DNA of 64,000 nucleotides from a virus: the IMG/VR virus record IMGVR_UViG_3300018432_000002, positions 1 to 64,000 of that record. The stretch is one strand, 5' to 3'. Position 1 is the stretch's first letter. Each line of letters begins with the position of its first letter. Made by a program: the position numbers and the translations under genes. The notes beneath the pieces were generated by a model that was given only the letters and a program-made list of their open reading frames with translations, searched no databases and was not told the DNA's origin. Shown here piece after piece: positions 101 to 59,504 of the stretch.

Positions 101-1198
101 ATGGCGATCATCGGTTTGCAGCTGTCCCAGGCGGAATCGGGCCGGATCCGGCTCGGCATGAAGGTCGCGTCGGGCCGCGGTACCCGGCCGGCGAAACTCG
201 ACCGGTTCCGTTTCACCTCTCCCCGGAAGAACCTGATCGAGAAGATCGCCGAGCTGTACGGCGGGGCGGTCGAGGAGTGGCAGCCGCCGCGTGGTGCCGG
301 GCAGTGGCAGGTGATCACGAACGCCACGGACATTCCGGTGGTGGTGCCGCCGCAGGACCCGGCGGAGTCGCAGTGGCTTGAGCTGTGGTCGGCGGGTGGC
401 TGCCAGCGTCGCTGTGACGGGCAGACGGAGAAGATTTCCGGGCAGGCCTGCATGTGCGACCCGGACCCCGCGCGGCGGGACTGCAAGATGCACACCCGGC
501 TGCGAGTGATGCTCGAGGACGTTCCCGGTCTGGGGGCGTGGCGGGTCGACACCGGCTCCTACTACGCGGCGACCGAACTGCCGGGTATCGCGCAGCTCCT
601 CGCCCAGGCGCAGGGCGCCATCCCCGGCCGGCTGGTACTGGATCAGCGGACGGTGGTGCGGGACGGCAAGACCAAAAACTTCGTGGTGCCGGTCTTGGAC
701 TGCACTGAGCTCACCCCGAAGGAGTTAATGTCCGGCCGGGTGCAGGAGTTGATGGCGGCCCGCGCGCAGGTCGCGATCGACGGGCGGCTCCAGCAGGCGG
801 CGATCACCGCTGGTGCAACGAAGGACTATCCGTCGCTGATCGATGCGGCGAAGACCCGTGAGGCGCTGGTGGACCTGCACAAGCAGGCACAGCAGGACTT
901 CCAGGGTCAGGTCCCGGAGGCTCTGCTGGCGCTGTTCACCAGCCGTGCCGAGGCGATCAAGCAGCCCGAGCCGTCGCAGCCGGCCGCGTCACCTGTTCCC
1001 GTTCCGGCAACCTCGGACGACCCGATCGGGGAGCTGTGGACGCAGATCCTCGAGGAGTCGCCATGGGACAACGCGGAGCAGCTTGAGCAGCACTTCTGTG
1101 AGCTGGTCGGCCATTCGTCGGATGAGGCGTCGGAGCAGGACATGCGCAAGTTCCTGGACGCGATCCGGCAGGCCAAGACCGCGGGGGTGGCGGCATGA
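101..1198 (+). CDS. phage early-region protein, function unknown (globular N-domain with Cys cluster CQRRCDG..CMCD..C, Q/A/E-rich linker, acidic C-terminus)
   Basis: 365-aa ORF with a GGAG RBS upstream and an ATGA overlap with the next gene; composition is not low-complexity. Confidence 0.75.
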   Translation: MAIIGLQLSQAESGRIRLGMKVASGRGTRPAKLDRFRFTSPRKNLIEKIAELYGGAVEEWQPPRGAGQWQVITNATDIPVVVPPQDPAESQWLELWSAGGCQRRCDGQTEKISGQACMCDPDPARRDCKMHTRLRVMLEDVPGLGAWRVDTGSYYAATELPGIAQLLAQAQGAIPGRLVLDQRTVVRDGKTKNFVVPVLDCTELTPKELMSGRVQELMAARAQVAIDGRLQQAAITAGATKDYPSLIDAAKTREALVDLHKQAQQDFQGQVPEALLALFTSRAEAIKQPEPSQPAASPVPVPATSDDPIGELWTQILEESPWDNAEQLEQHFCELVGHSSDEASEQDMRKFLDAIRQAKTAGVAA

Positions 1199-6765: not shown

Positions 6766-7047
6766 CTACTCGGCCGTGTCCCCGGCCTTCTCGACGAGCG
6801 AAGCGACGTACTCGCGTGTGTATCCGGCTCGGCGCCCGACTTCGGACTTCGACATGCCTGACCGTACGGCTGCCACGATCGCGGCGTGCAGCGCAGCCCG
6901 CTGCTTTTCGAGCTGGGCTTCGACGCGTTGGAAGGACTTCGCCGCTTCGTCGAGGGAGAGCGCCTCGGGGGTTTTGGTGAGGCGTGGAGTCCTGGGCATG
7001 GTCGGGATTGTCGCATGACGGTGATCGCGAAGCGAGGTAGCGGACAT
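6766..7047 (-). CDS. small HTH transcriptional regulator (the only reverse-strand gene in the early region)
   Basis: HTH-like MSKSEVGRRAGYTREYVASLV; GGAAGG RBS upstream of ATG 7047; convergent with the 6401..6760 gene and divergent from 7156. Confidence 0.65.
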   Translation of the reverse strand: MSATSLRDHRHATIPTMPRTPRLTKTPEALSLDEAAKSFQRVEAQLEKQRAALHAAIVAAVRSGMSKSEVGRRAGYTREYVASLVEKAGDTAE

Positions 7048-10232: not shown

Positions 10233-11270
10233 ATGCCTAGAGTGAGTGTTGGTAAGGCCGAACTTGAAACCCGGCCGCACATCCTCTACCGGTTCTACGA
10301 CCGGACCGGAGTGCTCCTGTACGTCGGCATCACCGTCGACCTGGCGGTTCGCATGGCGACCCACGCCAAGGAGAAGACCTGGTGGCTCCGAGTGGACCGT
10401 AGTGCCACTCGGATCGAGTACTACGACAGCCGGCGCGCAGCACTGGATGCCGAACGCGATGCGATCAAGACCGAGAAGCCGTTGGAGAACGACCAGCATA
10501 ACGAGTGGGCAGAAATTGAGCCCGATGGCGAGGGCGATCAAGCGCACGCGCTCGCACGAGAGATCATCTCGTTTCTTGAATCACGCGACCGAGAGGCGGT
10601 CTTGAAGCGAGCGTCCGTCGGCTGGGATGACGAGCCAATTTCCGACCGCGATCGCGACCTAGAAGCAGCCACGGGTGCCGTTTCACTGCTGTGGGGTAAG
10701 CGGTTCGACTTGGCGACGATGATCGATGAGTTGCTCGACCTGATTCCGGATGGTGAAGGGATGGCCTATCGCGATTATGCGCGCGCAGAGTACCGGGAGA
10801 GCGGACAGGCGGACGAATCCATCACGGCGATTTCCGAGCGTGCATTGCGAAAGTTGATTATGGCCAAGGCGGATGCTGTGTTGAGGGTGTTGCCCATCGA
10901 AGAAGCCAGAGAGTGGGTTGCGTCCGGTGCAGTCCTCCTCCCAGGTCAGGAGCACATCGACCACGTCGTCTTTGGAGCACGGTATTGCTCACTGTTCAAG
11001 CAACGTGGGGTCACCTTCCGCAGACTATGCAACGGTCCCGGCCGACATGTGGCTCGATGCGCGAGCAAGGCGAATGTCAAGACCTATTTCGAGCTTTGCG
11101 ACACGTGTCCTGCCGGGCATCCGTGTGAAGGGCATACGCGCTGGTGCTCTCGACACGCTGTTGAAGCTGAGCAGGGCAAGCTTTCCGTCGTAGACGGAAA
11201 CTCCGTTGCACTCCTTCCCATTGCTAGGTCAACCCCTCTCCCTTCCGACTCCGACCCTTGGCCGTTCTGA
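10233..11270 (+). CDS. GIY-YIG nuclease domain protein (N-terminal GIY-YIG, C-terminal Cys/His-rich domain)
   Basis: ILYRFYDRTGVLLYVGIT.DL..R...H ... R..A...E..AI..EKP..N; visibly more A/T-rich codons than its neighbours. Confidence 0.75.
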   Translation: MPRVSVGKAELETRPHILYRFYDRTGVLLYVGITVDLAVRMATHAKEKTWWLRVDRSATRIEYYDSRRAALDAERDAIKTEKPLENDQHNEWAEIEPDGEGDQAHALAREIISFLESRDREAVLKRASVGWDDEPISDRDRDLEAATGAVSLLWGKRFDLATMIDELLDLIPDGEGMAYRDYARAEYRESGQADESITAISERALRKLIMAKADAVLRVLPIEEAREWVASGAVLLPGQEHIDHVVFGARYCSLFKQRGVTFRRLCNGPGRHVARCASKANVKTYFELCDTCPAGHPCEGHTRWCSRHAVEAEQGKLSVVDGNSVALLPIARSTPLPSDSDPWPF

Positions 11271-12226
11271 TGGCCTGGGGACGCATGGACGACGGCTTCG
11301 ACGACCACCCAAAGGTGGTTGCGCTCCTCGACGAGGACGACTTGGTGACTGCCGGGGTGGCGATCGGCCTCTGGACGCTGTGCTGGACGTGGGCGCACCG
11401 CAACACCCGCAAGCGCGGCAAGACGCCCGGCCTGATTCCTGCTGGGCTGCCACGCCGTTTCTTTGGACCGGCCGGGAAGGACGCCGCGCAGCTACTCGTT
11501 AAGCACCGCTTGTGGGATTCGGCTGACGACGGCGGGTGGTTCATCCACGACTTCGAGGACTTCCTGCCGACCGAGGAGACCCGCGAGGCGCGCGCGGAGG
11601 CTGGCCGGCGTGGAGCCGCTAAGCGCTGGGCCGGTCACCAGAAAGCCGCAGAAGCGGACGAAGAGTCTGCCGAGGATGGCAATTTGCCATCGGCTTGCCA
11701 TGACGCTGATAGCAACGCGGTGGCAAGCGATGGCTCGCGCGCGCCGGCGCGCTGGGATTCCCACTCCCATACCCAATCCCAAACCCAAGAAGAAGATCTA
11801 CCTTCGGTAGATCTGTTTGGGGCGGCTGCGCCTGCCAAGAACGATACGAAGCAGAAGCCCGCAAAGGCGGCACCGAAGACGGCGACGCGTATCCCCGATG
11901 ACTTCTCTGTCTCGGAGCCGATGAAGGCTTGGGCGGCCGAGAATGCCAAGCTCGTCGACTGGCCTGCCGAGACTGAACACTTCGTCGACTATTGGCGGGC
12001 ACGGGCAAAGGACGACACTAAGAAAGACTGGGCAGCAGCGTGGCGTACTTGGCTGCGCAATGCCCAGAAGGACCTCGAAGGACGTGGCGTCACCCGGCGA
12101 TGGCAGGCCGGCACAGAAAACCAAGGACGCGCCGGCCCTGAATTGGGTCGCCGGTCCGGAGGCGTCCCGAGTCAGCACAAGCCCTTCAAGAACCCACCCA
12201 TCGACGCCTACCACGGAGAACTGTGA
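11270..12226 (+). CDS. replisome organiser / replication initiation protein (DnaD-like N-domain), tentative
   Basis: Sits directly upstream of the DnaC-like loader; N-domain WGRMDDGFDDHPK...GLWTLCWTWA...; ATG 11270 overlaps the previous TGA. Confidence 0.55.
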   Translation: MAWGRMDDGFDDHPKVVALLDEDDLVTAGVAIGLWTLCWTWAHRNTRKRGKTPGLIPAGLPRRFFGPAGKDAAQLLVKHRLWDSADDGGWFIHDFEDFLPTEETREARAEAGRRGAAKRWAGHQKAAEADEESAEDGNLPSACHDADSNAVASDGSRAPARWDSHSHTQSQTQEEDLPSVDLFGAAAPAKNDTKQKPAKAAPKTATRIPDDFSVSEPMKAWAAENAKLVDWPAETEHFVDYWRARAKDDTKKDWAAAWRTWLRNAQKDLEGRGVTRRWQAGTENQGRAGPELGRRSGGVPSQHKPFKNPPIDAYHGEL

Positions 12227-12966
12227 TGACCCACCCGACCAGTTTCAGCCGCGAGTTCGACCAGGTGATGTCTCCGCGTCAGCGCGCCGAGGCCGAGTTG
12301 GACTCAAGCTGCACCCGCCATCCGGAGCATGCGTTCGTCGGTTGTCCTCGGTGCAAGGTTGAAGAGCGCATCGAGGAGAAGCGGGAGATCGCCGCGGCTG
12401 CTGCGGAGAAGTGCCGGGAGCGTTTCCCGTTGCGCTACCGGGACGCCGAGGTGCAGAACTCGACGGTGGACGAGTGGGTGCGGCAGTTCCAGAACGATTA
12501 CCGGCATGCGCCGTCGCTGCTGCTGATGGGCCCGACGGGGACGGGGAAGACGCATGCTGGCTACGCGGCGCTGCGGATGGCGGTGTCGGTGGCGTGGGTG
12601 GCGCCGTCGGGTGCGATCCGGTCGCCGAATTGGCAGGCGATGACGTACGCGGACCTGTGCGCTTCGCTGCGCCCTCGGGGCCGTGACTACGACACGGAGG
12701 CGGTGCTTAAGACGTACCGGGACACGAGCCTGCTGTTCATCGACGACTTGGGTGCCGGGAAGGTGTCGGAGGCGGTGGAGGAGGTCACATACCGCCTGGT
12801 GAATGACCGGTACAACGACATGCGCCCGTCGATCTTCACCACGAACCTGTCGTTGCAGGCGCTCAAGGACGCAGTCGGCGACCGGATCGCGTCGCGGCTG
12901 GCGGAGACGTGCACGCGGGTTGTTCTCGACGGTCCTGACCGCCGCCGGCAGGTTCGAGCTGCCTGA
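12223..12966 (+). CDS. DnaC/IstB-like AAA+ helicase loader
   Basis: Walker A GPTGTGKTH, Walker B LLFIDDLG, NDRY...IFTTNL. Confidence 0.85.
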   Translation: MMTHPTSFSREFDQVMSPRQRAEAELDSSCTRHPEHAFVGCPRCKVEERIEEKREIAAAAAEKCRERFPLRYRDAEVQNSTVDEWVRQFQNDYRHAPSLLLMGPTGTGKTHAGYAALRMAVSVAWVAPSGAIRSPNWQAMTYADLCASLRPRGRDYDTEAVLKTYRDTSLLFIDDLGAGKVSEAVEEVTYRLVNDRYNDMRPSIFTTNLSLQALKDAVGDRIASRLAETCTRVVLDGPDRRRQVRAA

Positions 12967-40194: not shown

Positions 40195-43100
40195 GTGACC
40201 TCTCCGACGAGCGTTGGCCAGGTCAGTGTCGAGGTGGTCGCCGAACTGCGATCCCTCGTGAAGGACATCCGCAAGCGCGTCGAGGAAGGCCTCCGGAACC
40301 TCGACGTTGGCAGGCGGATCCGCGACTCCATCGGCCAGGACCCCATCTCGGTGCCGGTTGAGATGGACGTCGACACCAGCGCCATCAACCAGCAGCTGCG
40401 CAACCTGAACGGCCTGCGCGTGCCGGTCGAGGTCGAACCGGAGACTGGTAGCTTCGCCGGCCGGTTGCGGTCGCAGTTGGCGCGCGTGACGTCGCAGGTG
40501 CGGTCAGCCGTCACCGTCGATGTCGACGTTGACCAGAACCGGTCGTCGTCAAGGCTCGGAAGTCTTCTGCAGGGCGCTGTCGGTGCTGCAGGCGCGGTGG
40601 GTGGGGCACTGACCGGGGCGGCGGGTGCCGCAGGTTCACTGCTGGGCGCACTCGGCCCGGTGGTCGGTGTTGTCGGCGCGATCGCTGCCGGCCTGACGTT
40701 GCTGCCGCCTCTGCTGGCAGCGGCGGCAGGTGCGGCGGCGGCGATTCCCGGTGCAATGGCCGGCATCGGTGCGGCGGTCGGCACCCTGGCGCTCGGATTC
40801 AAAGGCATCTCCGAAGCATTCAAGCCGTCCGCAGGTGGCGGCGGCGGCGGCGGTGGTGGGGCGGCCGGCCAGGCGGCGAACCAGGCCCGCCAGATCGCGT
40901 CCGCGTCCCGGCAGGTGGAGGCAGCGCGGCGGGGTATCGCCGCGGCGAACCGCCAGTATTTGGCGTCGCTGCGGTCGGTGGCCGCCGCAGAGCGTGGCCT
41001 GGTGGCGGCGCAACGCGCTGTCGGCGAGTCGCAGGACACGCTCATCGAAGCCCAGCAGCGCGCCATCCGTAGCCAGGAGGCCGTGAATCGGGCCCGCCGT
41101 GAGGCCCGCGAGGACATTGAAGACCTCGGCCGGGCGTTGCGCGGGGCGGTCATCTCCGAGGCGGAGGCGGCTCAGGCCGTCAACGATGCCTTGTTCGCCT
41201 TGAACGAGGCGAAACTGACCGGCGACCTGAAAGCGATCGCCCGCGCGTCGAACGCCTACGACCGTTCGGTGTTGTCGTTGGAGGATGCCAAGGATTCCGT
41301 CGAGGATTTGACGGAGGAGTCGCAGGAGTTCGCGGCGAAGGGCGTCGAGGGCAGCGACAAGGTTCAGGGCGCCCTTGAGGACCAGGTATCGGCGTGGGAT
41401 GCGGTCAAGGACGCGCAGCAGGGTGTTCGGGACGCACAGAACGGTGTCATTGACGCCACCGACTCTCTGATCTCCGCGCAGGACGGCGTCAAGTCGGCCC
41501 TGGACGGCCAGAAGTCCGCCACGGATGGGCTGATCGCGGCGCAGGAGTCGCTGGCGGCGGCGCAGCAGAAAGTTGCTGCCGGTTCTGGCGGGGTGGCCAA
41601 AGAGGTCATCAAGCTCGCCCCGGCGGCGCAGAGGTTCGTCAACGCGATCAAGGCACTCAAGCCGGCGTTCGAGAACCTGCGACTTGATGTGCAGCAGAGG
41701 CTGTTCGAGGGCCTTGACAAGACGGTGACCCGGGTAGGTGAGGCGTGGATTCCGCGGCTGCGGGAGACGCTGGGCAGCTACGCGGACACGTTCAACGGAT
41801 TTTTCAAAAACCTCGGCAAGAGCATCACCACGCCGAAGTTCATGGACGATATCCAGGCCGGCGCGGAGGGGTTCCGGCAGCTGCTGGACAAGCTCGGCGC
41901 GTCGATCACTACCAGTCTGGTACCGGCGTTCGGTGCCCTGTCGAAGGCGGCCGGGCCGTTCCTGTCGAAGCTCGGCGACGAACTGGCCGGGATCGTCACC
42001 GAGTTCTCGAACTGGGTGCTTCAGGGCGAGAAGACCGGCGGCCTGGAATCGTTTTTCGACAAGGCCGCGAAGGCGATGCACGACATCTTCGACATTGGCA
42101 GGTCCGTCGGGTCGATCATCGCCAGCCTGTTCGAGATCATCACCGGGGACAACACGAACACCGGCAAGACCCCACTGGAGTCCTTCAAGCAGGCGCTCGA
42201 CAAGGTCGCCGTGTGGCTGAAGGACCCTGACAATCAGCAGCGCATCCGCCAGCTGATCGACGACGTAAAAGAGGCAGGCCAGCAGTTCCTGGAGTTCGCC
42301 AACACGGTCCGTCGTGCCTTCGACCGCGTCCAGGAAGCGTTCTTCCGCCTCCAAACCTTCATCTACCAGCTGTCCGACATTTTCGGCCTGAGCGGTTCGG
42401 CCGGCGGCGAGGTCGGCAAAGCGATCAGCGGTGCCGTGACCGGCAACGACGGTGGCAGCCTGGTCGAGCAGTTCCGCGAGGGCGGCCGGAACATCATTGA
42501 TGGCCTGATCGAAGGCATCGAGGAACGTCTCGGCCAGTTCTCGATCGCCGGCCTGCTGTGGGAGGGCCCTGATTCTCTGCTGGGCCGGATCCGGGCCGGG
42601 TTCGGGATCGCGTCGCCGTCAACGGTCATGGCTGAGGTCGGCCGGAACCTGATTGACGGGCTTGTCCTCGGAATTGGGGAGAAGTTCGGGCAGCTGGTGG
42701 ACAAGGTGCGGGAGATCCCGGACCGGGTCCGGGGCGCCCTTTCCGGTGCCGGTACGTGGCTTCAGCAGCATGGTCAGAGTGCGATCAACGGCCTGAGCTC
42801 GGGTGTCTCGTCGAGGATGGCGGACCTGCGTAGTCGTGCCGGCCAGGCCCGAACAACAGTGCAGAACGCCCTGTCGAATGCGGGCACGTGGCTCTCCACC
42901 CATGGGCGCAACGCGATTATCGGCCTTGCCAACGGCATGACCTCCTGGTTCGGGAACCTGCGCGCCTACGCGGGCAACGCCCGGGTGACGGTGCAGAACG
43001 CTCTGGCCAACGCCGGGTCGTGGCTGGTGAATCATGGACGCGCCGTGATTTCCGGCCTTATGCAAGGCATTTCGTCGATGTTCAACACGCTCGGCTCGTT

Positions 43101-43469: not shown

Positions 43470-43643
43470 ATGTCGATCGTCCACGTTCTCCCGGTCAACG
43501 ACCTCATCGAGCATGAGGACGAAGGCGAAGACTGCCCGTGCGGGGTCCGTACCGAGCCGGTCAAGGACGAGGAGACCGGGGCGGTCGGCTGGCTGGTCGT
43601 GCACAGTTCGCTCGACGGCCGGGAGCGATTCGAGAAGGCGTAG
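43470..43643 (+). CDS. small conserved-looking protein (57 aa; HVLPVNDLIEH...CPCG...VVHSSLDGRE)
   Basis: ATG 43470 lies 11 nt after the TMP stop; high GC3; below the ORF-track cutoff. Confidence 0.5.
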   Translation: MSIVHVLPVNDLIEHEDEGEDCPCGVRTEPVKDEETGAVGWLVVHSSLDGRERFEKA

Positions 43644-43644
43644 A

Positions 43645-43682
43645 GCAGGGCGGGTGCGGCCTCGCGGCGACACCCGCCCTGC
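43645..43682. terminator. bidirectional terminator hairpin between convergent genes
   Basis: GCAGGGCGGGTG pairs with CACCCGCCCTGC, 12-bp perfect stem. Confidence 0.6.
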
Positions 43683-43701
43683 AGCCACCGGAAGTCGACT
43701 C

Positions 43702-44043
43702 CTACTGGCCAAGCCAAGACGGCTCGGTCAGGTCGACTACAAGCGGGTTCCCATCAAACGGATCGCGGGTCTTGCGGGACGGCGGCGGGGTTTCCTGCCG
43801 CAGTCGATCAACCCGATCCGCAGCCTCAAGCCGCATGAGCTCCTCCACCTCGTCGAGAAACGACCAGTCGGCGGACTTCACGGCGCGCCCGTCGGCAAAC
43901 TGGATACCGAGCGGTACGCCCTGACTGTCGTCGCGGAGACAGACAGCGAACCGGGCCGCCTCCTCCTCGGTGGCACACAGTTCGTATTCGATGTTGTAGT
44001 AGCGCATGTACCAGACAGCGCAGGTGTACGACGGGTCGGTCAT
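43702..44043 (-). CDS. hypothetical protein (reverse-strand cassette gene 2)
   Basis: GAGGAGAA RBS; 113 aa; more A/T-rich than its flanks. Confidence 0.6.
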   Translation of the reverse strand: MTDPSYTCAVWYMRYYNIEYELCATEEEAARFAVCLRDDSQGVPLGIQFADGRAVKSADWSFLDEVEELMRLEAADRVDRLRQETPPPSRKTRDPFDGNPLVVDLTEPSWLGQ

Positions 44044-44079
44044 TCGCTTCTCCTCGGTGCATCTTTGAGCTTCAACTAC

Positions 44080-44763
44080 TCATCGGTATGCCTTGCCGTT
44101 GTAGTACGGCAGAGGTTGAGCGGATCGAAGCAACAGGTCTTCCGCCACGTAGGCCGCCTCGCGATCGACGTGCGGTTCGGCCATCCAGGATTCGAAGATC
44201 TTCCCGTCGTCCTTGTGCCACTTCAGCCGATCACGCAGGTTGCCGCTGCTTCCGATATAGCAGCAAGCCCCAGATCCGTCATAGAGGTAGTAGACAACGG
44301 CTTGGCGGGCGGCGGGGAGTGACAGGCCAGAGTAAAGCGGCCAAGGCCCGCGCCACCTCCCGTCCGAGTCGGGCTCGTTGTACATCTGCCCGATCACAAG
44401 ACTCGACTTGAACGAAACGGTCTCATCCCAGCGAGCGCTGTGCCCTGGACGGGCAAGTGGTCGGTATCCCTCGTAGATCTGACGAAGGTCGCGCTGGGTG
44501 AACCTGCCCGACCGGTACCCGGCTTCCACGTCTTTCAGGAAGCGGCGCTCAGCGTGATCGAGAAGACGCTCCGCCTCGGCTAAATCGTTGACCATGCGCT
44601 CAGGGTCGAGACCCATCGGCGCAAGTCGTGCAATAGCCGCCTCGGCGGGAAGAACAACCAGCGCGGGCGGGCGCCGAGGATCCGGGGGCTCCTGCACGGT
44701 GTGCTTGGGCTCAAAGCCAGGTGCGCAGACTGTTTGCCGAAACTCGGCGATAGCATTACCCAT
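44080..44763 (-). CDS. protein with C-terminal GIY-YIG nuclease domain (reverse-strand cassette gene 1)
   Basis: VVYYLYDGSGACCYIGSSGNLRDRLKWH...REAAYVAEDLLL...YYN; GGAGGG RBS. Confidence 0.7.
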   Translation of the reverse strand: MGNAIAEFRQTVCAPGFEPKHTVQEPPDPRRPPALVVLPAEAAIARLAPMGLDPERMVNDLAEAERLLDHAERRFLKDVEAGYRSGRFTQRDLRQIYEGYRPLARPGHSARWDETVSFKSSLVIGQMYNEPDSDGRWRGPWPLYSGLSLPAARQAVVYYLYDGSGACCYIGSSGNLRDRLKWHKDDGKIFESWMAEPHVDREAAYVAEDLLLRSAQPLPYYNGKAYR

Positions 44764-44909
44764 TGGGTCGCCCTCCGTTGGCGATCAAGAGCCCGGCACG
44801 GCGGTGTAGGAGTCGCCATGTCGGGCTCGTTTCTGCTCTCTATTGTCTCATTCCTGAATGATCAATAGAGCTGCGGATTGCCTCCCGAACTAGTGAAAGG
44901 GAGGCGGCA

Positions 44910-50937: not shown

Positions 50938-51494
50938 CCATGCGCTACTTCTACGACTGCGAATTCCTCGAGGACGGCAAGACGATCGAGCTGATCTCGA
51001 TCGGCATTGTCGCTGAGGACGGCCGGGAGCTGTACCTGGTTAGCCGGGACGCCCCGTGGAAGCGGATCAAGAAGGACGAGTGGCTGATGGCCAACGTCGT
51101 GCCGAAGCTCCCGCAGCCGCATGGCGACCGGCGCAACCAGGTGCCGAAGAGCTGGCTGATCGACTTCCACGACCCGGCCGTCCGCGAGCGGGAAGCCATT
51201 GCCAACCGGGTGGCCGCCTTCCTGCTCGGCAACGACCTGGAGACCTACACCGACCTGGAGCTGTGGGCGGACTACGGCGCTTATGACCACGTCGTGCTCT
51301 GCCAACTCTTCGGGCCGATGGTCGCCCTGCCGTCCGGCATCCCGATGTTCACCCACGACTTCCAGCAGGCGCTGCGAGCGGCAGGCAATCCGCCGATCCC
51401 GGAGCAGGCCGCCGGGCAGCACAACGCGCTGGACGACGCACGGCACCTGCGCGCTTGCTTCAACGCTTTGCATGCGACGGCAAGCCATGGCTAG
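50934..51494 (+). CDS. DEDDh 3'-5' exonuclease (DnaQ-like/exoribonuclease-like)
   Basis: YDCEFLEDG (DxE), YGAYDHVVL (D), HNALDDAR (H-x4-D). Confidence 0.8.
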   Translation: MTMRYFYDCEFLEDGKTIELISIGIVAEDGRELYLVSRDAPWKRIKKDEWLMANVVPKLPQPHGDRRNQVPKSWLIDFHDPAVREREAIANRVAAFLLGNDLETYTDLELWADYGAYDHVVLCQLFGPMVALPSGIPMFTHDFQQALRAAGNPPIPEQAAGQHNALDDARHLRACFNALHATASHG

Positions 51495-52314
51495 CTGGTC
51501 GCTTGTGCCATGCCTGGTAGCGCTGCGGTCCGAGGTCAACACCCTCGCGCCGGGGCGAGACAAAGGCAGCGACGGAGCCGTCGGCGATCTTCGGCACCAG
51601 GCGACGAAGTCAGACCACAACCCGGACTCCCGTGGCTGGGTACACGCTCTGGACCTTGACAAAGACCTTCGCAAGCCGGGCTGGCCGATGGACCGGATCG
51701 TGCAGATCCTTGTCACCCGCTGTCGAGCCGGTCTCGAAGATCGCATCCAGTACATCATCTGGAACGGCCGGATCTGGTCACGCTCGTGGGGCTGGACCGC
51801 CCGCACCTACACCGGACCGAACCCGCACGACAAGCATGCACACGTGTCTGCCCGTGACCTGGTCGCGCTCGAACAGAACACCCGCCCGTGGGGGCTGCTG
51901 GCCGCCGCACCCGCCAAGCAGGAGGACGACGACATGACCACCAAGGCCGAGTTCACGACCTGGCTCAAAGACCCCGATGTCCGCAAAGCCCTCTGCTCCG
52001 CCGTCCTCGGCACCGACGGCGTCCTCGCCGCACCCGGCAAACCCGCACCGGGCAAGAACGCGGACGGCTCCGAGGTCAACACACATTGGGCTGGGGTGTC
52101 GTGGCTCGAACAGATCTACGCCCACGTGCTGGTGCTGCGGCAGTACGCCGGCCTCGAAGCCGCCGAAGTCCCGCCCAGCGCCGCGCAGAACGCCGCCGCG
52201 GTCATCGAAGCCCTCGGCGCAGGCGATCGGACGCCCGTGCAGATCGCTGACGCTCTGCGGGCCGCGCTCGGCACGAAAGCAGCCGACGTGGGGCGCATCC
52301 TCGCCTCCATCTAG
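51487..52314 (+). CDS. endolysin candidate: LAS-type zinc peptidase (M15-like) N-domain + C-terminal domain
   Basis: KSDHNPDSRGWVHALDLD and NPHDKHAHVS (H-x-D...H-x-H arrangement); sits upstream of the holin-like genes. Confidence 0.6.
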   Translation: MASWSLVPCLVALRSEVNTLAPGRDKGSDGAVGDLRHQATKSDHNPDSRGWVHALDLDKDLRKPGWPMDRIVQILVTRCRAGLEDRIQYIIWNGRIWSRSWGWTARTYTGPNPHDKHAHVSARDLVALEQNTRPWGLLAAAPAKQEDDDMTTKAEFTTWLKDPDVRKALCSAVLGTDGVLAAPGKPAPGKNADGSEVNTHWAGVSWLEQIYAHVLVLRQYAGLEAAEVPPSAAQNAAAVIEALGAGDRTPVQIADALRAALGTKAADVGRILASI

Positions 52315-55756: not shown

Positions 55757-55860
55757 TCTGTGCCGTTCAAACCATCCACCTGCTACAAGCGTAGGCAGCA
55801 ACCAAGCGAACCGGTGTCGGTCGTGCGGGCGACCCCGACTGGGTGCCTACGGGAGGCCTC

Positions 55861-56256
55861 GTGTCTGAGATCAAGTTGACGCCGTCAACCCAGGCGGTTC
55901 TGCAGGCCATCTGGGGCGGCTACAACTGGGGCGTCGCCATCATCAAAGAGTCCGGGGTGTCCATGACCACCGTCTACGACACCCTCCGGCGCCTACGCAA
56001 GGCAGGCTGGGTGACCGAACAGCTCGAACCCGTCGAACTGATGCACGAACTCGGCCGGCCGCGGCGGCGCATCTACCACCTGTCCCCCACCGCCCTCGAG
56101 GCACTGGGCTGGACTGAGAACGTCGCCCTACCTGCTGGCGTTGCTACGCCGCCGCCCCACATCGATCAGCCAACGGCGGAGCTGGACTTCATCCTCGACG
56201 CTCAAGTCTACGAGACCACCGGCGGCGTTGATCCAGACGGTTCCGCCGGGTCGTAG
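55861..56256 (+). CDS. PadR-like winged-helix transcriptional regulator
   Basis: ...VYDTLRRLRKAGWVTEQ...GRPRRRIYHLSPTALEAL; GGGAGG RBS before GTG 55861. Confidence 0.65.
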   Translation: MSEIKLTPSTQAVLQAIWGGYNWGVAIIKESGVSMTTVYDTLRRLRKAGWVTEQLEPVELMHELGRPRRRIYHLSPTALEALGWTENVALPAGVATPPPHIDQPTAELDFILDAQVYETTGGVDPDGSAGS

Positions 56257-56336
56257 CCCTGCACGCAGCTGCCCGCCGTCAACCGGGTCACCCACGACCA
56301 GTTCCCGCGGCGAGTGCCGCTCATTCGTCGGCCGGG

Positions 56337-57143
56337 TCACCGGACGCCGCCAAGCATGGACGCTGCCGCAAACCCGATCGCGGCCATCAAAGCGACCACC
56401 ACGGTCTCGGTGCGAGATCCGGTGCGGAACCGCAGCCACCTCGGAGCTCCCACCCGGGCCCAGCGGCAGCCACGGATCCGAGCCGGCCAGAGTAGCGGCA
56501 CTCGCGAATAGGTGAGCGCGTCGCCGAGGCTGTGTGCCAGGCATCCCCAGCCGACGGCCAACCCGAGCCACCAGCCGATCTGCTGGTCGGCGACCAGGGC
56601 GACAGCGAGCAGCCCGACGAGGGCGGCGCCGACGGCCGCGGTGAACCGGAAAGCCGTCCTGTTGAGCCGCCGGAACTTGCCCGGCAGGATCAGGTCGCCG
56701 AGCTGGGCGCGAACTTTGGAACTGAGGGCGGTGTGGGCGAGCAGCCACACCGCGAACCCGATCACCGCGAGGGCGAACCCGCGGCCGGCCAGCAGGACGC
56801 CTGCCGTGACGGCGAGACCGGTCGTCAGCGCACCTGCAGCGGTGTGGGTCAACCCGCGGTGCCCGCCCGATTCGGGATCTCGGCCGCAGTGGGTGCAGGA
56901 CACCTGCTGGCTTTGTCGGGCCACCCACACCACCGCTGCCGACAATCCTCGGGTGATCGGGCCGAGCGTGCGTGACACGGTCGAGCCGGGGTGGTCAAGG
57001 TCGGGCAGCAGCGCCAGCCCGGCGGACACTGCGGCACCCATCCAGACGGTGGCCGGTTCGAGGTCGACGCCGCAGGTGGTGAGCACTGCCGAGCCGGCCA
57101 GCCAACCGACCGCCCCGGACAGGGCATGAGATTTCCCCATCAC
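56337..57143 (-). CDS. YdjM-family membrane-bound metal-dependent hydrolase (DUF457)
   Basis: SHALSG...LLPDLDHPGS...HRGLTHT...HSLGDALT motifs and multiple TM segments. Confidence 0.75.
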   Translation of the reverse strand: MMGKSHALSGAVGWLAGSAVLTTCGVDLEPATVWMGAAVSAGLALLPDLDHPGSTVSRTLGPITRGLSAAVVWVARQSQQVSCTHCGRDPESGGHRGLTHTAAGALTTGLAVTAGVLLAGRGFALAVIGFAVWLLAHTALSSKVRAQLGDLILPGKFRRLNRTAFRFTAAVGAALVGLLAVALVADQQIGWWLGLAVGWGCLAHSLGDALTYSRVPLLWPARIRGCRWARVGAPRWLRFRTGSRTETVVVALMAAIGFAAASMLGGVR

Positions 57144-57172
57144 CGGGCATCACCGCGCAGATCGTCATTCAG

Positions 57173-57185
57173 CGAACGAGCGTTT
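57173..57185. promoter_or_regulatory. weak LexA/SOS-box-like element CGAAC-GAGC-GTTT upstream of the YdjM-like gene
   Basis: Partial match to the Gram-positive CGAAC-N4-GTTCG consensus, 30 nt upstream of start 57143. Confidence 0.2.
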
Positions 57186-57196
57186 ACCCTGATCGC

Positions 57197-57457
57197 ATGG
57201 TCACGGTGCAGCTGCGCGACGAATCCAACCCGGAACGGCTCCTGATCGACCACATCATGCTGCCGTTCGAACCGAAACTCGGCACCCCGATCTACGTCTT
57301 CGACCGGTTCGAGCAGGCCAAACTGAGCTTCTTCAGCTTCCGCAGCAAAGGTAAACAGCGCTGCTACATCGCCACCGAAGTGCTGCAGTACGAGATCTCC
57401 CTCGACGACCCTGCCCAGTCCGGGATCGTCTACCTGGCCCGCGAAGTTAAGCCGTAG
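57197..57457 (+). CDS. hypothetical protein
   Basis: 86-aa ORF, convergent with the translocase gene (stops 1 nt apart); somewhat A/T-richer. Confidence 0.45.
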   Translation: MVTVQLRDESNPERLLIDHIMLPFEPKLGTPIYVFDRFEQAKLSFFSFRSKGKQRCYIATEVLQYEISLDDPAQSGIVYLAREVKP

Positions 57458-57458
57458 C

Positions 57459-59504
57459 TCACGCATCCGCGTCCACCTCGACCAGCACATACGCGCCGTG
57501 CCCGTCACGCTTCACCGCACCGAACTCGTCCATCAGCTCGTCAAGGATCTGATGGACTCGCCGCACCGAATAGCTGGTGGCCTCAGCGATCGGGGTCGGT
57601 GATGTGATGCCCACCTTCACCGCGTCGAGGACTTTGCGATGCCCGTCGTGCATCTGCCGGGCCTGCACCTTCTGCGTCGCCGGATTCCACACCGGGAACT
57701 CCGCCACCGCAGGCAGGTCCCCCAGCCCGGCGGCGCCGTCTGTGCCCCTGGCCGCTGCGAAGATCCGGTCAGTGTCACCACCGATGTAAGTACCGTTGCG
57801 CCGTTCCTTGACTCGGCGCCGGATCTCCTCACGGGCCATCTCCGCGAGTTGCGCGCGCATCAGGTACACCACGCCGGCGGCGTTGCCGGAGCCGGTGTCC
57901 AGCGACCGCCACCGGATCTTCGCGGGCCACTCCTTGCGCTGATCGTTGGTCAGTTCGTACGCCCGGAACGGCGCGTCCCGCCCGCCGGAGTCGCCGGCCA
58001 CGAACCGGCCGTAGCCGGGCAGCTCGGGGAACTGCGACGGGTCGTCGTCGACTTTGAACACCTGCCGGGCGTTCGCGTCCATCGAACGCATCATGATCCC
58101 GTTGCCCATGAGCAGGTTCGAACGGATCATCTCGGCGGCGTTGCCTGCCCCACCGAACGCACCCAGCGTGGACTCCTGCGTCTCGAGGATCTCGGCGACG
58201 CCGACCTTCTGCCCCTCACGGGCGATCTGCATGATGATTTTCTGGAGACCTTCCCACATCTCTGGGTTCTCGGCCTTCATCAGCGGCTTGTGGCACTCCG
58301 AAAGGATCAGCAGGAGACCAGGCCGGTCCTCACGTGGCGTGAACCCGATCAGCTCCTCAAGACCGTTCTCGTCCTGCCGCAACTCCATCACCAGCTGCGC
58401 CGCGGCGAACTGGGTGCAGATCTGCTCGTGGGTCTGCGCACCCCAATCGGAGTACTTCATCAGCGTCGGGCTCGACGAGTTGCCCTGCCCGTCGCCGTAC
58501 CAGACCACCGTCGGATAGTCCTCCGACGCGGCCACACTCATGGCGATGATCTCGATCAGGCGGGTCTTCCCGGCGTTGCTACCGCCTTGGACGAAACCGC
58601 CCTTCATCCGCTGATGCTCGAGGTTGTACACCGTCCACGAGGCGGTGCCCTCACCGTCGACGTACGGGCCGAGCCGCACCTTCCCGTCGACGAACACCGA
58701 CGGACCGGGCCACTGGTGCGAGTCCTTGATCTGAGGTTTCGTCACCACGGTCAGCAGAACCGCAGGCTCCTCGAGAACGGGGTGCCGTTCGGCGATGACG
58801 TCCTGCTCGATGGTCAGGCCCAGCCCGCCGCGGACAAGGATCATCACCGACATAAGGGCGGCGATGGACTGCTTGCCGGGGACGAGGCGCAGCACGTACC
58901 GCCAGCCGGCTTTGACCTGTTCCGGCGATTCGAGCCGCGAACCTGCGAGGGTGCCGTTCGGGCAGCCGAGGTACTTGTCCCAGCGGGCGGTGTACCGGTC
59001 CACGGTCGGCTCAGCCTGGCTTTCCGCGACGGGGGTGGCCGGGGTGCTGTTGGGGATGCGGTGCTTGCGCCACCAGTGCAACGACAGCGCCGACCCGAGA
59101 GCGGTCAGGATGCCGACGGCGTTCCAGGACAGCCCCCACGCCGTGGTGGTGGTCAGCCACGTCGCGGCGACTGCTACGAACGCGAGGCCACGGTGCAGGC
59201 TTTTGCGGTCATCGAGGCGCTTACGCATCTGGTGCGCGGCGACAACGGCGACCACCACGCACACCGCGGCGGTCCCGCCGAGGATCTCCGCGTCATTGGT
59301 GCTCGCGGTCTTCGCCGCGTTCAGGGCGGCCGACGCCAGTACGAGCAGGCCCATGCCGGCGAACGGCGCGACCTGCTTCTGCACGCCACGGGTGTGGGTG
59401 TGGGCGGTCTGCGCGTAAGCCCGGTAGCGGACGGCACGCTGCCGGTACGTCTCGGGAGGCTGCGGCGTCGCCTGAGTCTTCGAGTTGGTCTGCTTGGTCG
59501 GCAT
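57459..59504 (-). CDS. FtsK/SpoIIIE-family DNA translocase (TraB-like)
   Basis: N-terminal TM helices, Walker A GGSNAGKT, Walker B LLLILSECH, C-terminal wHTH-like region. Confidence 0.9.
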   Translation of the reverse strand: MPTKQTNSKTQATPQPPETYRQRAVRYRAYAQTAHTHTRGVQKQVAPFAGMGLLVLASAALNAAKTASTNDAEILGGTAAVCVVVAVVAAHQMRKRLDDRKSLHRGLAFVAVAATWLTTTTAWGLSWNAVGILTALGSALSLHWWRKHRIPNSTPATPVAESQAEPTVDRYTARWDKYLGCPNGTLAGSRLESPEQVKAGWRYVLRLVPGKQSIAALMSVMILVRGGLGLTIEQDVIAERHPVLEEPAVLLTVVTKPQIKDSHQWPGPSVFVDGKVRLGPYVDGEGTASWTVYNLEHQRMKGGFVQGGSNAGKTRLIEIIAMSVAASEDYPTVVWYGDGQGNSSSPTLMKYSDWGAQTHEQICTQFAAAQLVMELRQDENGLEELIGFTPREDRPGLLLILSECHKPLMKAENPEMWEGLQKIIMQIAREGQKVGVAEILETQESTLGAFGGAGNAAEMIRSNLLMGNGIMMRSMDANARQVFKVDDDPSQFPELPGYGRFVAGDSGGRDAPFRAYELTNDQRKEWPAKIRWRSLDTGSGNAAGVVYLMRAQLAEMAREEIRRRVKERRNGTYIGGDTDRIFAAARGTDGAAGLGDLPAVAEFPVWNPATQKVQARQMHDGHRKVLDAVKVGITSPTPIAEATSYSVRRVHQILDELMDEFGAVKRDGHGAYVLVEVDADA

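What the first reader, a model, noticed from the sequence alone, without database searches (positions are those of the whole stretch)
43645..44909. Reverse-strand two-gene cassette (C-terminal GIY-YIG protein + 113-aa partner) inserted between tape measure and tail-tip genes
The morphogenesis operon otherwise runs strictly on the + strand. Here two minus-strand genes with their own strong RBSs (GGAGGG, GAGGAGAA) sit between the TMP/small ORF and the tailspike. On one side they are bounded by a 12-bp bidirectional terminator (43645-43682). On the other side is an A/T-richer intergenic region carrying an 8-bp inverted repeat, CTCTATTG (44838-45) / CAATAGAG (44863-70). Both genes look more A/T-rich than their flanks, which suggests recent acquisition. 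The 227-aa protein has an unrecognised N-terminal ~140 aa and a C-terminal GIY-YIG nuclease core (YYLYD..G..CYIGSSGNLRDRL.WH ... E ... N). That is the opposite domain order from classical I-TevI-type homing endonucleases. A lysogen-expressed moron in this orientation is a typical location for a superinfection-exclusion or defence system (nuclease effector plus small sensor or immunity partner). A free-standing homing endonuclease is the more mundane alternative.
Basis: partly seen in the sequence, partly recalled or inferred. Interest (0 to 1): 0.65.

Follow-up and report, generated by a model that had tools for sequence, protein, structure and literature searches.

The report
Mobile GIY-YIG nuclease cassette in prophage tail operon
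A temperate actinophage carries, backwards in the middle of its tail genes, a self-contained nuclease gene with its own promoter and folded mRNA leader that sits at different sites in related phages, while the small gene next to it is not a conserved partner; it is an unusual variant of a known kind of selfish or accessory phage gene, not a new two-gene defence system.

Summary
Two minus-strand ORFs (227 aa, 44080-44763; 113 aa, 43702-44043) with strong ribosome-binding sites lie between the tape-measure gene plus a 57-aa ORF and a pectate-lyase tailspike. A strong hairpin bounds one side and a GC-poorer intergenic region the other.

The 227-aa protein has a genuine C-terminal GIY-YIG core, closest to that of UvrC, with all catalytic residues invariant. 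Its helical N-terminal domain matches nothing known. It belongs to an uncharacterised actinobacterial and prophage family of about 334 clusters. That family usually sits co-oriented in replication modules, often beside dnaB.

The "two-gene system" reading fails. The 113-aa gene never accompanies the nuclease in any other locus, and the nuclease has a different or no downstream neighbour elsewhere.

What travels together is an extended -10 promoter, a covarying two-hairpin leader that part-sequesters the ribosome-binding site, the nuclease ORF, and a roughly 40-nt 3' motif. This unit sits at different late-region sites in related phages. It is more conserved than its flanks and has atypically low GC3.

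The phage is temperate, with a serine integrase and a repressor-like gene upstream, so a lysogen-expressed role is possible but untested.

Best reading: an autonomous mobile nuclease module, like a homing endonuclease or moron. Interest is moderate.

The parts
43645..43682 (.). Strong GC-rich hairpin between the convergent 57-aa ORF (stop 43643) and the 113-aa ORF (stop 43702). It is a likely bidirectional terminator but has no U-tract.
   Evidence: free energy -35.3 and -38.9 kcal/mol, z -4.6 and -4.7.
43702..44043 (-). 113-aa acidic protein (pI 4.3) of unknown function. It has no transmembrane segment and no family match. Its relatives lie in runs of small early genes of other actinophage contigs. 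It is not a conserved partner of the nuclease.
44044..44079 (-). Conserved 3' motif between the nuclease stop and the next start codon. It includes the palindrome GTTGAAGCTCAAA (44064-44076) and the ribosome-binding site GAGGAGAA (44048-44055). It is conserved in W, L002-L004 and L005 although the downstream ORFs differ.
44080..44763 (-). 227-aa nuclease gene. Residues 1 to about 39 are low-confidence. A helical domain of unknown function spans residues 40-128 (44380-44646). The GIY-YIG core spans residues 150-227 (44083-44316) with Y158, Y169, G171, R179, H183, E208 and N222.
44768..44784 (-). Leader hairpin P2 (UCGCC...GGCGA). The ribosome-binding site GGAGGG (44771-44776) lies in its loop and 3' arm. 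Relatives show compensatory changes (UCGCU/AGCGA, UCUCC/GGAGA).
44789..44828 (-). Leader hairpin P1 near the 5' end of the predicted transcript. The base of the stem is conserved, with covariation, in four loci.
   Evidence: z -2.6 to -4.6.
44842..44850 (-). Extended -10 promoter-like element TGAGACAAT (consensus TGnGAnAAT), invariant in W, L002, L005 and L001.
   Evidence: The consensus scan did not flag it because there is no -35 element.
44838..44870 (.). It is specific to W, and one arm overlaps the -10 element.

Best explanation
The real unit is one gene, not two. It is an autonomous, horizontally mobile nuclease module of about 0.8 kb (about 44044-44850, minus strand). It consists of four pieces:
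- a host-type extended -10 promoter;
- a two-hairpin mRNA leader, made of a hairpin near the 5' end of the transcript and a small hairpin that part-occludes the ribosome-binding site;
- a 227-aa protein with a helical N-terminal domain of unknown function and a catalytically complete, UvrC-like GIY-YIG nuclease core at the C-terminus;
- a short conserved 3' motif.

The module has landed backwards between the tape-measure region and the tailspike gene of a temperate actinophage. It sits at other late-region sites in related phages.

Inferred mechanism: host RNA polymerase transcribes the module independently of the late operon. The leader keeps translation of a potentially toxic nuclease low. 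The nuclease nicks or cuts DNA of related phage genomes that lack the module, or DNA at replication or recombination intermediates, and recombinational repair then spreads or retains the module. That is homing-endonuclease-like behaviour in a package built like a moron.

The 113-aa gene is an unrelated small actinophage gene that happens to be co-transcribed here.
For: Shown:
- The GIY-YIG core is real. In an 80-sequence alignment Y158, Y169, G171, S172, R179, H183, E208 and N222 are invariant. The predicted fold's best PDB matches are the UvrC GIY-YIG domain (Foldseek probability 1.0, TM 0.60 on the target). The family profile hits UvrC across the whole domain at E 4.5e-4. 74 of 80 relatives hit PF01541.
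- The gene is under purifying selection: dN/dS 0.115 for W against L002.
- There is no partner. tblastn finds no co-occurrence of the two proteins in any fetched locus. The downstream genes differ: a 49-aa Cys-rich ORF plus DUF6221 in L002-L004, an 86-aa ORF in L005, a convergent 68-aa ORF in L001, and none in L024.
- The promoter element, both leader hairpins with compensatory changes, the linker CUUGAUC and the ribosome-binding-site context are conserved with the ORF in four otherwise unrelated contexts. The 3' motif is conserved in three of those contexts and is found nowhere else in the window or the fetched loci.
- The module occupies different sites. In W it lies between the TMP/57-aa ORF and the tailspike. 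In L002 it lies two genes after the 956-aa tail protein homologue. In L005 it lies next to a homologue of W 51487-52314. In L024/L056 it lies about 3.8 kb past the tail protein homologue. In all four it is on the strand opposite to the tail genes.
- The cassette is 73% identical between W and L002, while the adjacent tail protein is 42% overall and 51% in the best segment.
- GC3 z is -2.4. The only gene with lower GC3 is the window's other GIY-YIG gene, which has the classical domain order.

Inferred: promoter activity, translational throttling by the leader, and the DNA target.
Against: - No cassette-less allele of the same junction was found, so homing is not shown.
- The protein has no recognisable sequence-specific DNA-binding module such as NUMOD, an HTH or a zinc finger. 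Its core is closest to UvrC, which is structure-specific.
- The wider family of about 195-aa proteins is co-oriented in replication modules. It lies within a few genes of dnaB in at least 6 loci, directly adjacent in two of them. Three loci share the gene order C5, C2, nuclease, and two of those also C4. That looks like a stable functional gene rather than a sporadic selfish one.
- The close subfamily has only 4 members, so the covariation and site-variation arguments rest on few sequences.
- The extended -10 element begins with G rather than T and was not flagged by the consensus scan.
Confidence: 0.5

Rival explanations
1. Lysogen-expressed moron acting as a superinfection defence. The prophage expresses the nuclease from its own promoter while the late genes are silent, and the nuclease degrades incoming DNA of competing phages. 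In this version the defence needs only the one gene. The 113-aa protein is at most an accessory.
For: - The phage is temperate: a serine integrase and a repressor-like HTH gene lie upstream, and a Gp3-like RDF lies in the window.
- The module has reverse orientation, a promoter-like element that needs no phage activator, and a strong terminal hairpin.
- In L024 the homologue is transcribed divergently from an HTH_3 regulator gene across a palindrome-bearing intergenic region, and a hairpin follows its stop codon.
- Precedents: SNIPE is a defence nuclease with a C-terminal GIY-YIG domain that acts with tape-measure proteins (PMC13190303). The HK97 gp15 moron is a superinfection-exclusion gene (cited in that paper).
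Against: - There is no PADLOC match beyond weak hits to the GIY-YIG core, E about 2e-3.
- There is no transmembrane segment and no DUF4041, so the protein is not SNIPE-like.
- No mechanism for telling self from non-self is evident, and no methylase lies next to the gene in W.
- Most of the wider family sits co-oriented inside replication modules, not in moron-like positions.
- No expression data exist.
Confidence: 0.25
2. Accessory replication or recombination nuclease of the phage, acting on structures as UvrC or Slx1 do. In this lineage it has been relocated out of the replication module. It is not selfish and not defensive.
For: - Wider-family genes are co-oriented with dnaB within a few genes in L014, L015, L017, L019, L021 and a Streptomyces avidinii linear plasmid, directly adjacent in the last two. 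RecT, an IstB/DnaC-like loader, helicases and exonucleases are among the other neighbours.
- The core is most similar to UvrC.
- The N-terminal domain is conserved across about 334 clusters, as expected for a protein-protein or structure-recognition domain.
Against: - The subfamily in the window carries its own promoter and leader, and sits at variable late-region positions on the opposite strand.
- Its composition is atypical.
- It is absent from all 50,697 cultured-phage records at tblastn E 1e-3, so it is not a general requirement.
Confidence: 0.15
3. Two-gene toxin-immunity or effector-sensor pair. The acidic 113-aa protein inhibits or senses for the nuclease.
For: - The two genes are 36 nt apart with no terminator between them, so they are probably co-transcribed.
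- The 113-aa protein is small and acidic, pI 4.3, like many nuclease inhibitors.
Against: - The two genes do not co-occur in any of the 10 relative loci.
- Relatives of the 113-aa protein lie among small early genes with no nuclease homologue nearby. The one nuclease-family neighbour seen is an HNH gene in L006.
- The nuclease has other downstream neighbours or none.
- The sequence conserved with the nuclease stops exactly at the start codon of the 113-aa gene.
Confidence: 0.05

Closest known systems
Free-standing GIY-YIG homing endonucleases of phages (I-TevI and the T4 Seg proteins; the "G-I-Y Y-I-G endonuclease" genes of actinophages)
   Same: - The catalytic fold and residues are the same.
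- It is a small stand-alone gene in a phage.
- It sits at variable positions among relatives and has atypical composition.
- Expression appears tightly controlled. Translational control of such genes through hairpins over the ribosome-binding site is from my own knowledge of I-TevI and mobE.
- BFVD structural hits are to actinophage GIY-YIG endonucleases, over the core domain only.
   Different: - The domain order is reversed.
- There is no NUMOD, HTH or zinc-finger DNA-binding module, and the N-terminal domain is unknown.
- The core is closer to UvrC than to I-TevI: E 4.5e-4 against 9e-3, and only the first motif aligns to I-TevI.
- No target site or empty allele is known.
Morons of temperate phages (for example HK97 gp15, next to the tape-measure gene)
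   Same: - It is an independent transcription unit inside a late operon of a temperate phage.
- It has its own promoter-like element and a terminal hairpin.
- Its composition is atypical and its position differs among relatives.
   Different: - The payload is a nuclease, not a membrane or exclusion protein.
- Expression in the lysogen has not been shown.
- The same gene family lies mostly in replication modules elsewhere.
SNIPE defence nuclease (transmembrane segment + DUF4041 + C-terminal GIY-YIG; PMC13190303)
   Same: - The GIY-YIG nuclease domain is C-terminal.
- There is a link to siphovirus tape-measure biology, though here it is only by gene position.
   Different: - No transmembrane segment: the maximum 19-residue hydropathy is 1.54.
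- No DUF4041.
- The protein has 227 residues. SNIPE must be longer, since its catalytic residue is E414.
- There is no significant PADLOC match.
UvrC / Cho N-terminal GIY-YIG domain
   Same: It is the best sequence-profile and structural match to the core, including the motif ...E..L(I/L)....P.(Y/L)N.
   Different: No other UvrC domain was detected. The protein is phage-borne and carries an unrelated N-terminal domain.

Membership tests
GIY-YIG nuclease superfamily (PF01541 / clan CL0418) | The beta-beta-alpha-beta-alpha core fold | tested here: met
   The AF2 model has strands 155-161 and 167-172, helix 176-186, strand 192-198 and helix 201-214. The top Foldseek PDB hits are UvrC GIY-YIG domains, probability 1.0. 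BFVD hits are GIY-YIG endonucleases.
GIY-YIG nuclease superfamily (PF01541 / clan CL0418) | The catalytic set: Tyr of GIY, Tyr-x-Gly of YIG, Arg, His/Tyr, Glu and Asn | tested here: met
   Y158, Y169, G171, R179, H183, E208 and N222 are invariant in 80 sequences. They align with the UvrC motifs.
GIY-YIG nuclease superfamily (PF01541 / clan CL0418) | Score above Pfam's gathering threshold | tested here: not met
   The window protein scores 16.7 bits against a cut-off of 22.6, E 0.0089, and only 31 residues align. However, 74 of 80 relatives match at E <= 0.01, best 1.6e-7.
I-TevI / Seg-type free-standing homing endonuclease | N-terminal GIY-YIG domain followed by a C-terminal DNA-binding module | tested here: not met
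   The core is C-terminal and no DNA-binding module was detected.
I-TevI / Seg-type free-standing homing endonuclease | Sporadic or variable position among related genomes | tested here: met
   The gene sits at four different late-region positions in W, L002, L005 and L024. The cassette is 73% identical between W and L002, against 42% for the flanking tail protein.
I-TevI / Seg-type free-standing homing endonuclease | Cleavage of the cassette-less allele and preferential inheritance of the cassette | not testable with these tools
   No empty-site relative was found. An experiment is needed.
Moron (independent transcription unit in a late operon of a temperate phage) | Own promoter and terminator | tested here: inconclusive
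   An extended -10-like element is conserved and there is a strong hairpin without a U-tract. The consensus scan found no sigma-70-type site. There are no transcript data.
Moron (independent transcription unit in a late operon of a temperate phage) | Temperate host phage | tested here: met
   A serine integrase and an HTH repressor-like gene lie on the same contig upstream. A Gp3-like RDF lies at window 101-1198.
Moron (independent transcription unit in a late operon of a temperate phage) | Composition different from the flanks | tested here: met
   The nuclease gene has GC3 z -2.4. The 113-aa gene, at z -0.9, does not differ.
Two-gene defence or toxin-immunity system | Conserved co-occurrence of the two genes | tested here: not met
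   The two genes do not co-occur in any of L001-L010.
Two-gene defence or toxin-immunity system | Match to a known defence-system model | tested here: not met
   PADLOC gives only PDC-S14 at E about 2-3e-3 over the GIY-YIG core, and nothing for the 113-aa protein.
SNIPE | N-terminal transmembrane segment and DUF4041 | tested here: not met
   No hydrophobic segment and no DUF4041 hit. The architecture is taken from PMC13190303.

The most novel reading that the evidence does not exclude
The 227-aa protein and its roughly 334-cluster family form an undescribed class of actinophage GIY-YIG nucleases. They combine a new helical N-terminal targeting domain with a UvrC-like core. One sub-lineage has become a self-regulated mobile module, with its own promoter, a covarying two-hairpin leader and a palindromic 3' site. 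Temperate phages carry this module in their late operons as a weapon against related phages, so that it acts both as a homing element and as a superinfection defence.
Probability: 0.2. Interest if true: 0.6.

Novelty: new variant of a known kind. Interest (0 to 1): 0.4.

Why it matters
If the module is a mobile nuclease with a new N-terminal targeting domain, it adds an architecture to the GIY-YIG homing and defence repertoire. It would also be a compact, self-regulated cassette whose leader and 3' motif can be tested directly.

The wider family's repeated placement beside dnaB in actinobacterial prophages and plasmids points to an unstudied nuclease in phage replication modules.

The work also gives a practical warning. 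Two adjacent reverse-strand genes in a late operon need not be a system. Here, checking for co-occurrence in relatives removed the partner hypothesis.

Tried and rejected
- Cultured-phage collection, window genes. Megablast of the region and tblastn of both proteins against 50,697 phage records found nothing.
- Cultured-phage collection, wider family. tblastn with a typical wider-family member also found nothing.
- Close relatives. Searches for close relatives of the nuclease in IMG/VR and in GTDB genomes found none. The 80-sequence alignment was too diverse to search with.
- Cassette-less allele. I looked through relatives of the 956-aa tail protein in IMG/VR and in metagenomes. Only 24-28% identical relatives and one short contig came back. 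Relatives of the 57-aa ORF turned out to lie in unrelated contexts, so that ORF cannot anchor the junction.
- PDB sequence searches gave nothing for the N-terminal domain or the 113-aa protein.
- 113-aa structure. The structure model was poor (pLDDT 59.6), and its Foldseek matches are not meaningful.
- NCBIfam and PADLOC gave nothing useful.
- The 3' motif as an RNA structure is rejected: z is about 0 in two of three loci.
- An R-M-like pairing was considered because a C5 methylase precedes the homologue in L014. Methylases appear near only 2 of 15 loci, and none is adjacent in W.
- A look-up to extend the contig past the window's right end failed.
Full report
**1. What is there**

The window is part of a 112-kb metagenome-assembled contig (Logan SRR6958552), where it corresponds to contig positions 24931-88930.

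From about 17.6 to 55.6 kb the genes run on the + strand. They encode a terminase, a Mu-like portal and protease, a capsid protein, a tail tube protein, a 1087-aa tape-measure protein (TMP), a pectate-lyase tailspike and a 956-aa minor tail protein.

The stated ribosome-binding sites are there. The public gene caller for the source contig also called both ORFs.

Between the TMP and the cassette lies a 57-aa ORF (phrog_2864). Its 24 IMG/VR relatives sit in many unrelated contexts, so this junction already carries accessory genes.

The hairpin at 43645-43682 is very stable, with z about -4.6 on both strands, but it has no U-tract.

The 8-bp inverted repeat is real but not conserved in relatives.

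The nuclease gene has the second-lowest GC3 of 68 genes (0.70, z -2.4). The 113-aa gene is unremarkable (0.78, z -0.9).

**2. The nuclease**

Pfam alone is weak: GIY-YIG at E 0.0089, below the gathering threshold. The assignment is still secure, for four reasons:
- The four close homologues keep VVY(Y/H)LY, CYIGSSG, R, H, E and YN.
- An exhaustive HMMER profile search found 334 cluster representatives. Most are about 190-200 aa and cover query residues about 65-236.
- In an 80-sequence alignment Y158, Y169, G171, S172, R179, H183, E208 and N222 are invariant. 74 of the 80 hit PF01541.
- The family profile aligns to the whole UvrC GIY-YIG domain at E 4.5e-4. The AF2 model (pLDDT 69) has the expected core fold, and its best PDB matches are UvrC GIY-YIG domains at probability 1.0.

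The N-terminal helical part (residues 40-128, pLDDT about 80) matches nothing in Pfam, the PDB or BFVD.

dN/dS against the 73%-identical homologue is 0.115. There is no transmembrane segment.

**3. The family and where it lives**

Neither the window protein nor a typical family member has any tblastn match at E 1e-3 in 50,697 cultured-phage records.

The family does occur in 13 IMG/VR contigs, in Nonomuraea and Sphaerisporangium genomes, and on a Streptomyces avidinii linear plasmid, where PGAP names it "GIY-YIG nuclease family protein".

In most of these loci the gene is co-oriented with its neighbours inside replication or recombination modules. A DnaB helicase lies within three genes in 5 of 15 loci, and directly upstream on the plasmid. 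Other neighbours include HTH proteins, RecT, an IstB/DnaC-like loader, helicases, exonucleases and methylases.

**4. The partner hypothesis fails**

The 113-aa protein has only three relatives among 5.8 billion clusters. All of them lie in runs of small same-strand genes, with no homologue of the nuclease nearby.

Conversely, no locus holding a nuclease homologue has a 113-aa homologue. What follows the nuclease gene differs from locus to locus:

| Locus | Downstream of the nuclease gene |
|---|---|
| L002-L004 | hairpin, a 49-aa Cys-rich ORF, then a DUF6221 gene |
| L005 | an 86-aa ORF |
| L001 | a convergent 68-aa ORF |
| L024 | a terminator-like hairpin |

The 113-aa protein itself is acidic (pI 4.3). 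It has no family, PDB or defence-model match, and its structure model was poor.

**5. What does travel with the nuclease**

I aligned the upstream regions of W, L002, L005 and L001 (48-73% protein identity, otherwise unrelated contexts). Four elements are conserved:
- An invariant TGnGAnAAT, an extended -10-like element (W 44842-44850, minus strand).
- A long GC-rich hairpin P1 (W 44789-44828). The base pairs of its stem covary: G-C, C-G and A-U at one position, and C-G and U-A at another.
- An invariant linker CUUGAUC.
- A 5-bp hairpin P2 holding the ribosome-binding site. It changes in a compensatory way (UCGCC/GGCGA, UCGCU/AGCGA, UCUCC/GGAGA).

Each of the four leaders folds into the same two-hairpin shape, with z from -2.6 to -4.6.

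About 40 nt downstream of the stop codon are also conserved in W, L002-L004 and L005: GAG..GTTGAAnnTCAAA..CACCGA, running up to the next start codon. The ORFs that follow are unrelated. The palindromic motif occurs nowhere else in the window or in the fetched loci. It is not a conserved RNA fold. Its role is unexplained.

**6. Mobility**

The module lies on the strand opposite to the tail genes in four lineages, at a different place in each:

| Locus | Position of the module |
|---|---|
| W | between the TMP/57-aa ORF and the tailspike |
| L002 | two genes past the homologue of the 956-aa tail protein |
| L005 | beside a homologue of W 51487-52314 |
| L024/L056 (35% identical) | about 3.8 kb past the tail-protein homologue, divergent from an HTH_3 gene |

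Between W and L002 the nuclease is 73% identical. The neighbouring tail protein is 42% identical overall, and 51% in its best segment.

The window's only gene with lower GC3 is a second GIY-YIG gene. It has the classical domain order, with the core at the N-terminus, and lies at 10233-11270 in the replication module.

**7. Lifestyle**

Upstream of the window the contig carries a 498-aa serine recombinase next to a repressor-like HTH gene on the opposite strand. The window begins with a Gp3-like recombination directionality factor. The phage is therefore temperate, and expression of the module from the prophage is possible. Nothing here shows that it happens.

**8. Interpretation**

The best-supported reading (confidence about 0.5) is an autonomous mobile nuclease module. 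It behaves like a homing endonuclease and is built like a moron. The 113-aa gene is an incidental neighbour.

The rivals are:
- A single-gene prophage defence (0.25). The temperate lifestyle, the independent promoter, the L024 arrangement and the SNIPE precedent (PMC13190303) favour it. The absence of any defence-model match and of any way to tell self from non-self count against it.
- A relocated replication or recombination nuclease (0.15). The dnaB linkage and the UvrC-like core favour it.

Promoter activity, the function of the leader and the DNA target are all inferences.

**9. Novelty and score**

GIY-YIG genes in actinophages, and morons in tail operons, are both familiar. Four things are new here:
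- the reversed architecture with an unknown N-terminal domain;
- the size of the family and its absence from cultured phages;
- the conserved promoter, leader and 3' motif that move with the gene;
- the dnaB linkage of the wider family.

I rate it a new variant of a known kind, interest 0.4.

Noticed in passing
window 10233-11270 (+): A second GIY-YIG gene (345 aa) with the classical domain order, core at the N-terminus. Pfam scores it 25.6 bits, above the gathering threshold. It has the lowest GC3 in the window (0.67). It lies just upstream of a 322-aa ORF and an IstB/DnaC-like loader (12223-12966). It has distant hits to mycobacteriophage "G-I-Y Y-I-G endonuclease" genes and is probably a conventional free-standing homing endonuclease.
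   Followed up: partly
window 43470-43643 (+): The 57-aa ORF after the TMP (phrog_2864, CPCG motif) is itself an accessory gene. Its 24 IMG/VR relatives lie in many different contexts and are not linked to a TMP.
   Followed up: partly
L058 826-2754 (contig upstream of the window); window 101-1198: A 498-aa serine recombinase lies next to a 143-aa HTH_31/HTH_3 repressor-like gene on the opposite strand, with a GntR gene further upstream. A Gp3-like RDF lies at the start of the window. Together these indicate a temperate phage or prophage with a phiC31-type integration system.
   Followed up: partly
window 44044-44079 (-); L002 1612-1660; L005 1700-1748: A conserved 3' motif with the palindrome TTGAAnnTCAA runs up to the start codon of unrelated downstream ORFs. 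It is not an RNA fold. It could be a binding site or a recombination junction.
   Followed up: partly
L014, L015, L017, L019, L021; L059 (S. avidinii plasmid NZ_CP108617, 88383-90432): The wider family of about 195-aa proteins (unknown N-terminal domain plus GIY-YIG core) repeatedly lies within a few genes of dnaB in prophage or plasmid replication modules, directly adjacent in L021 and the plasmid.
   Followed up: partly
L024 9691-10543: The distant homologue (35% identical) starts 7 nt after a TACTAT box, so its transcript may be leaderless. It is divergent from a 76-aa HTH_3 gene. The palindrome CATGCTCAAGCATG lies at the 5' end of that gene.
   Followed up: partly
window 6766-7047 (-): A lone 93-aa reverse-strand gene in the otherwise + strand early region. 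It has no family match.
   Followed up: no
window 40600-41000: The TMP contains a poly-glycine run, and GC rises locally to 0.75.
   Followed up: no
window 55843-59504: After the tail and accessory genes come a PadR/TrmB-like HTH gene (+), a YdjM-like membrane hydrolase (-) and a 681-aa protein with no match (-). This may be the right-hand end of the prophage. No tRNA gene was found in the window.
   Followed up: no
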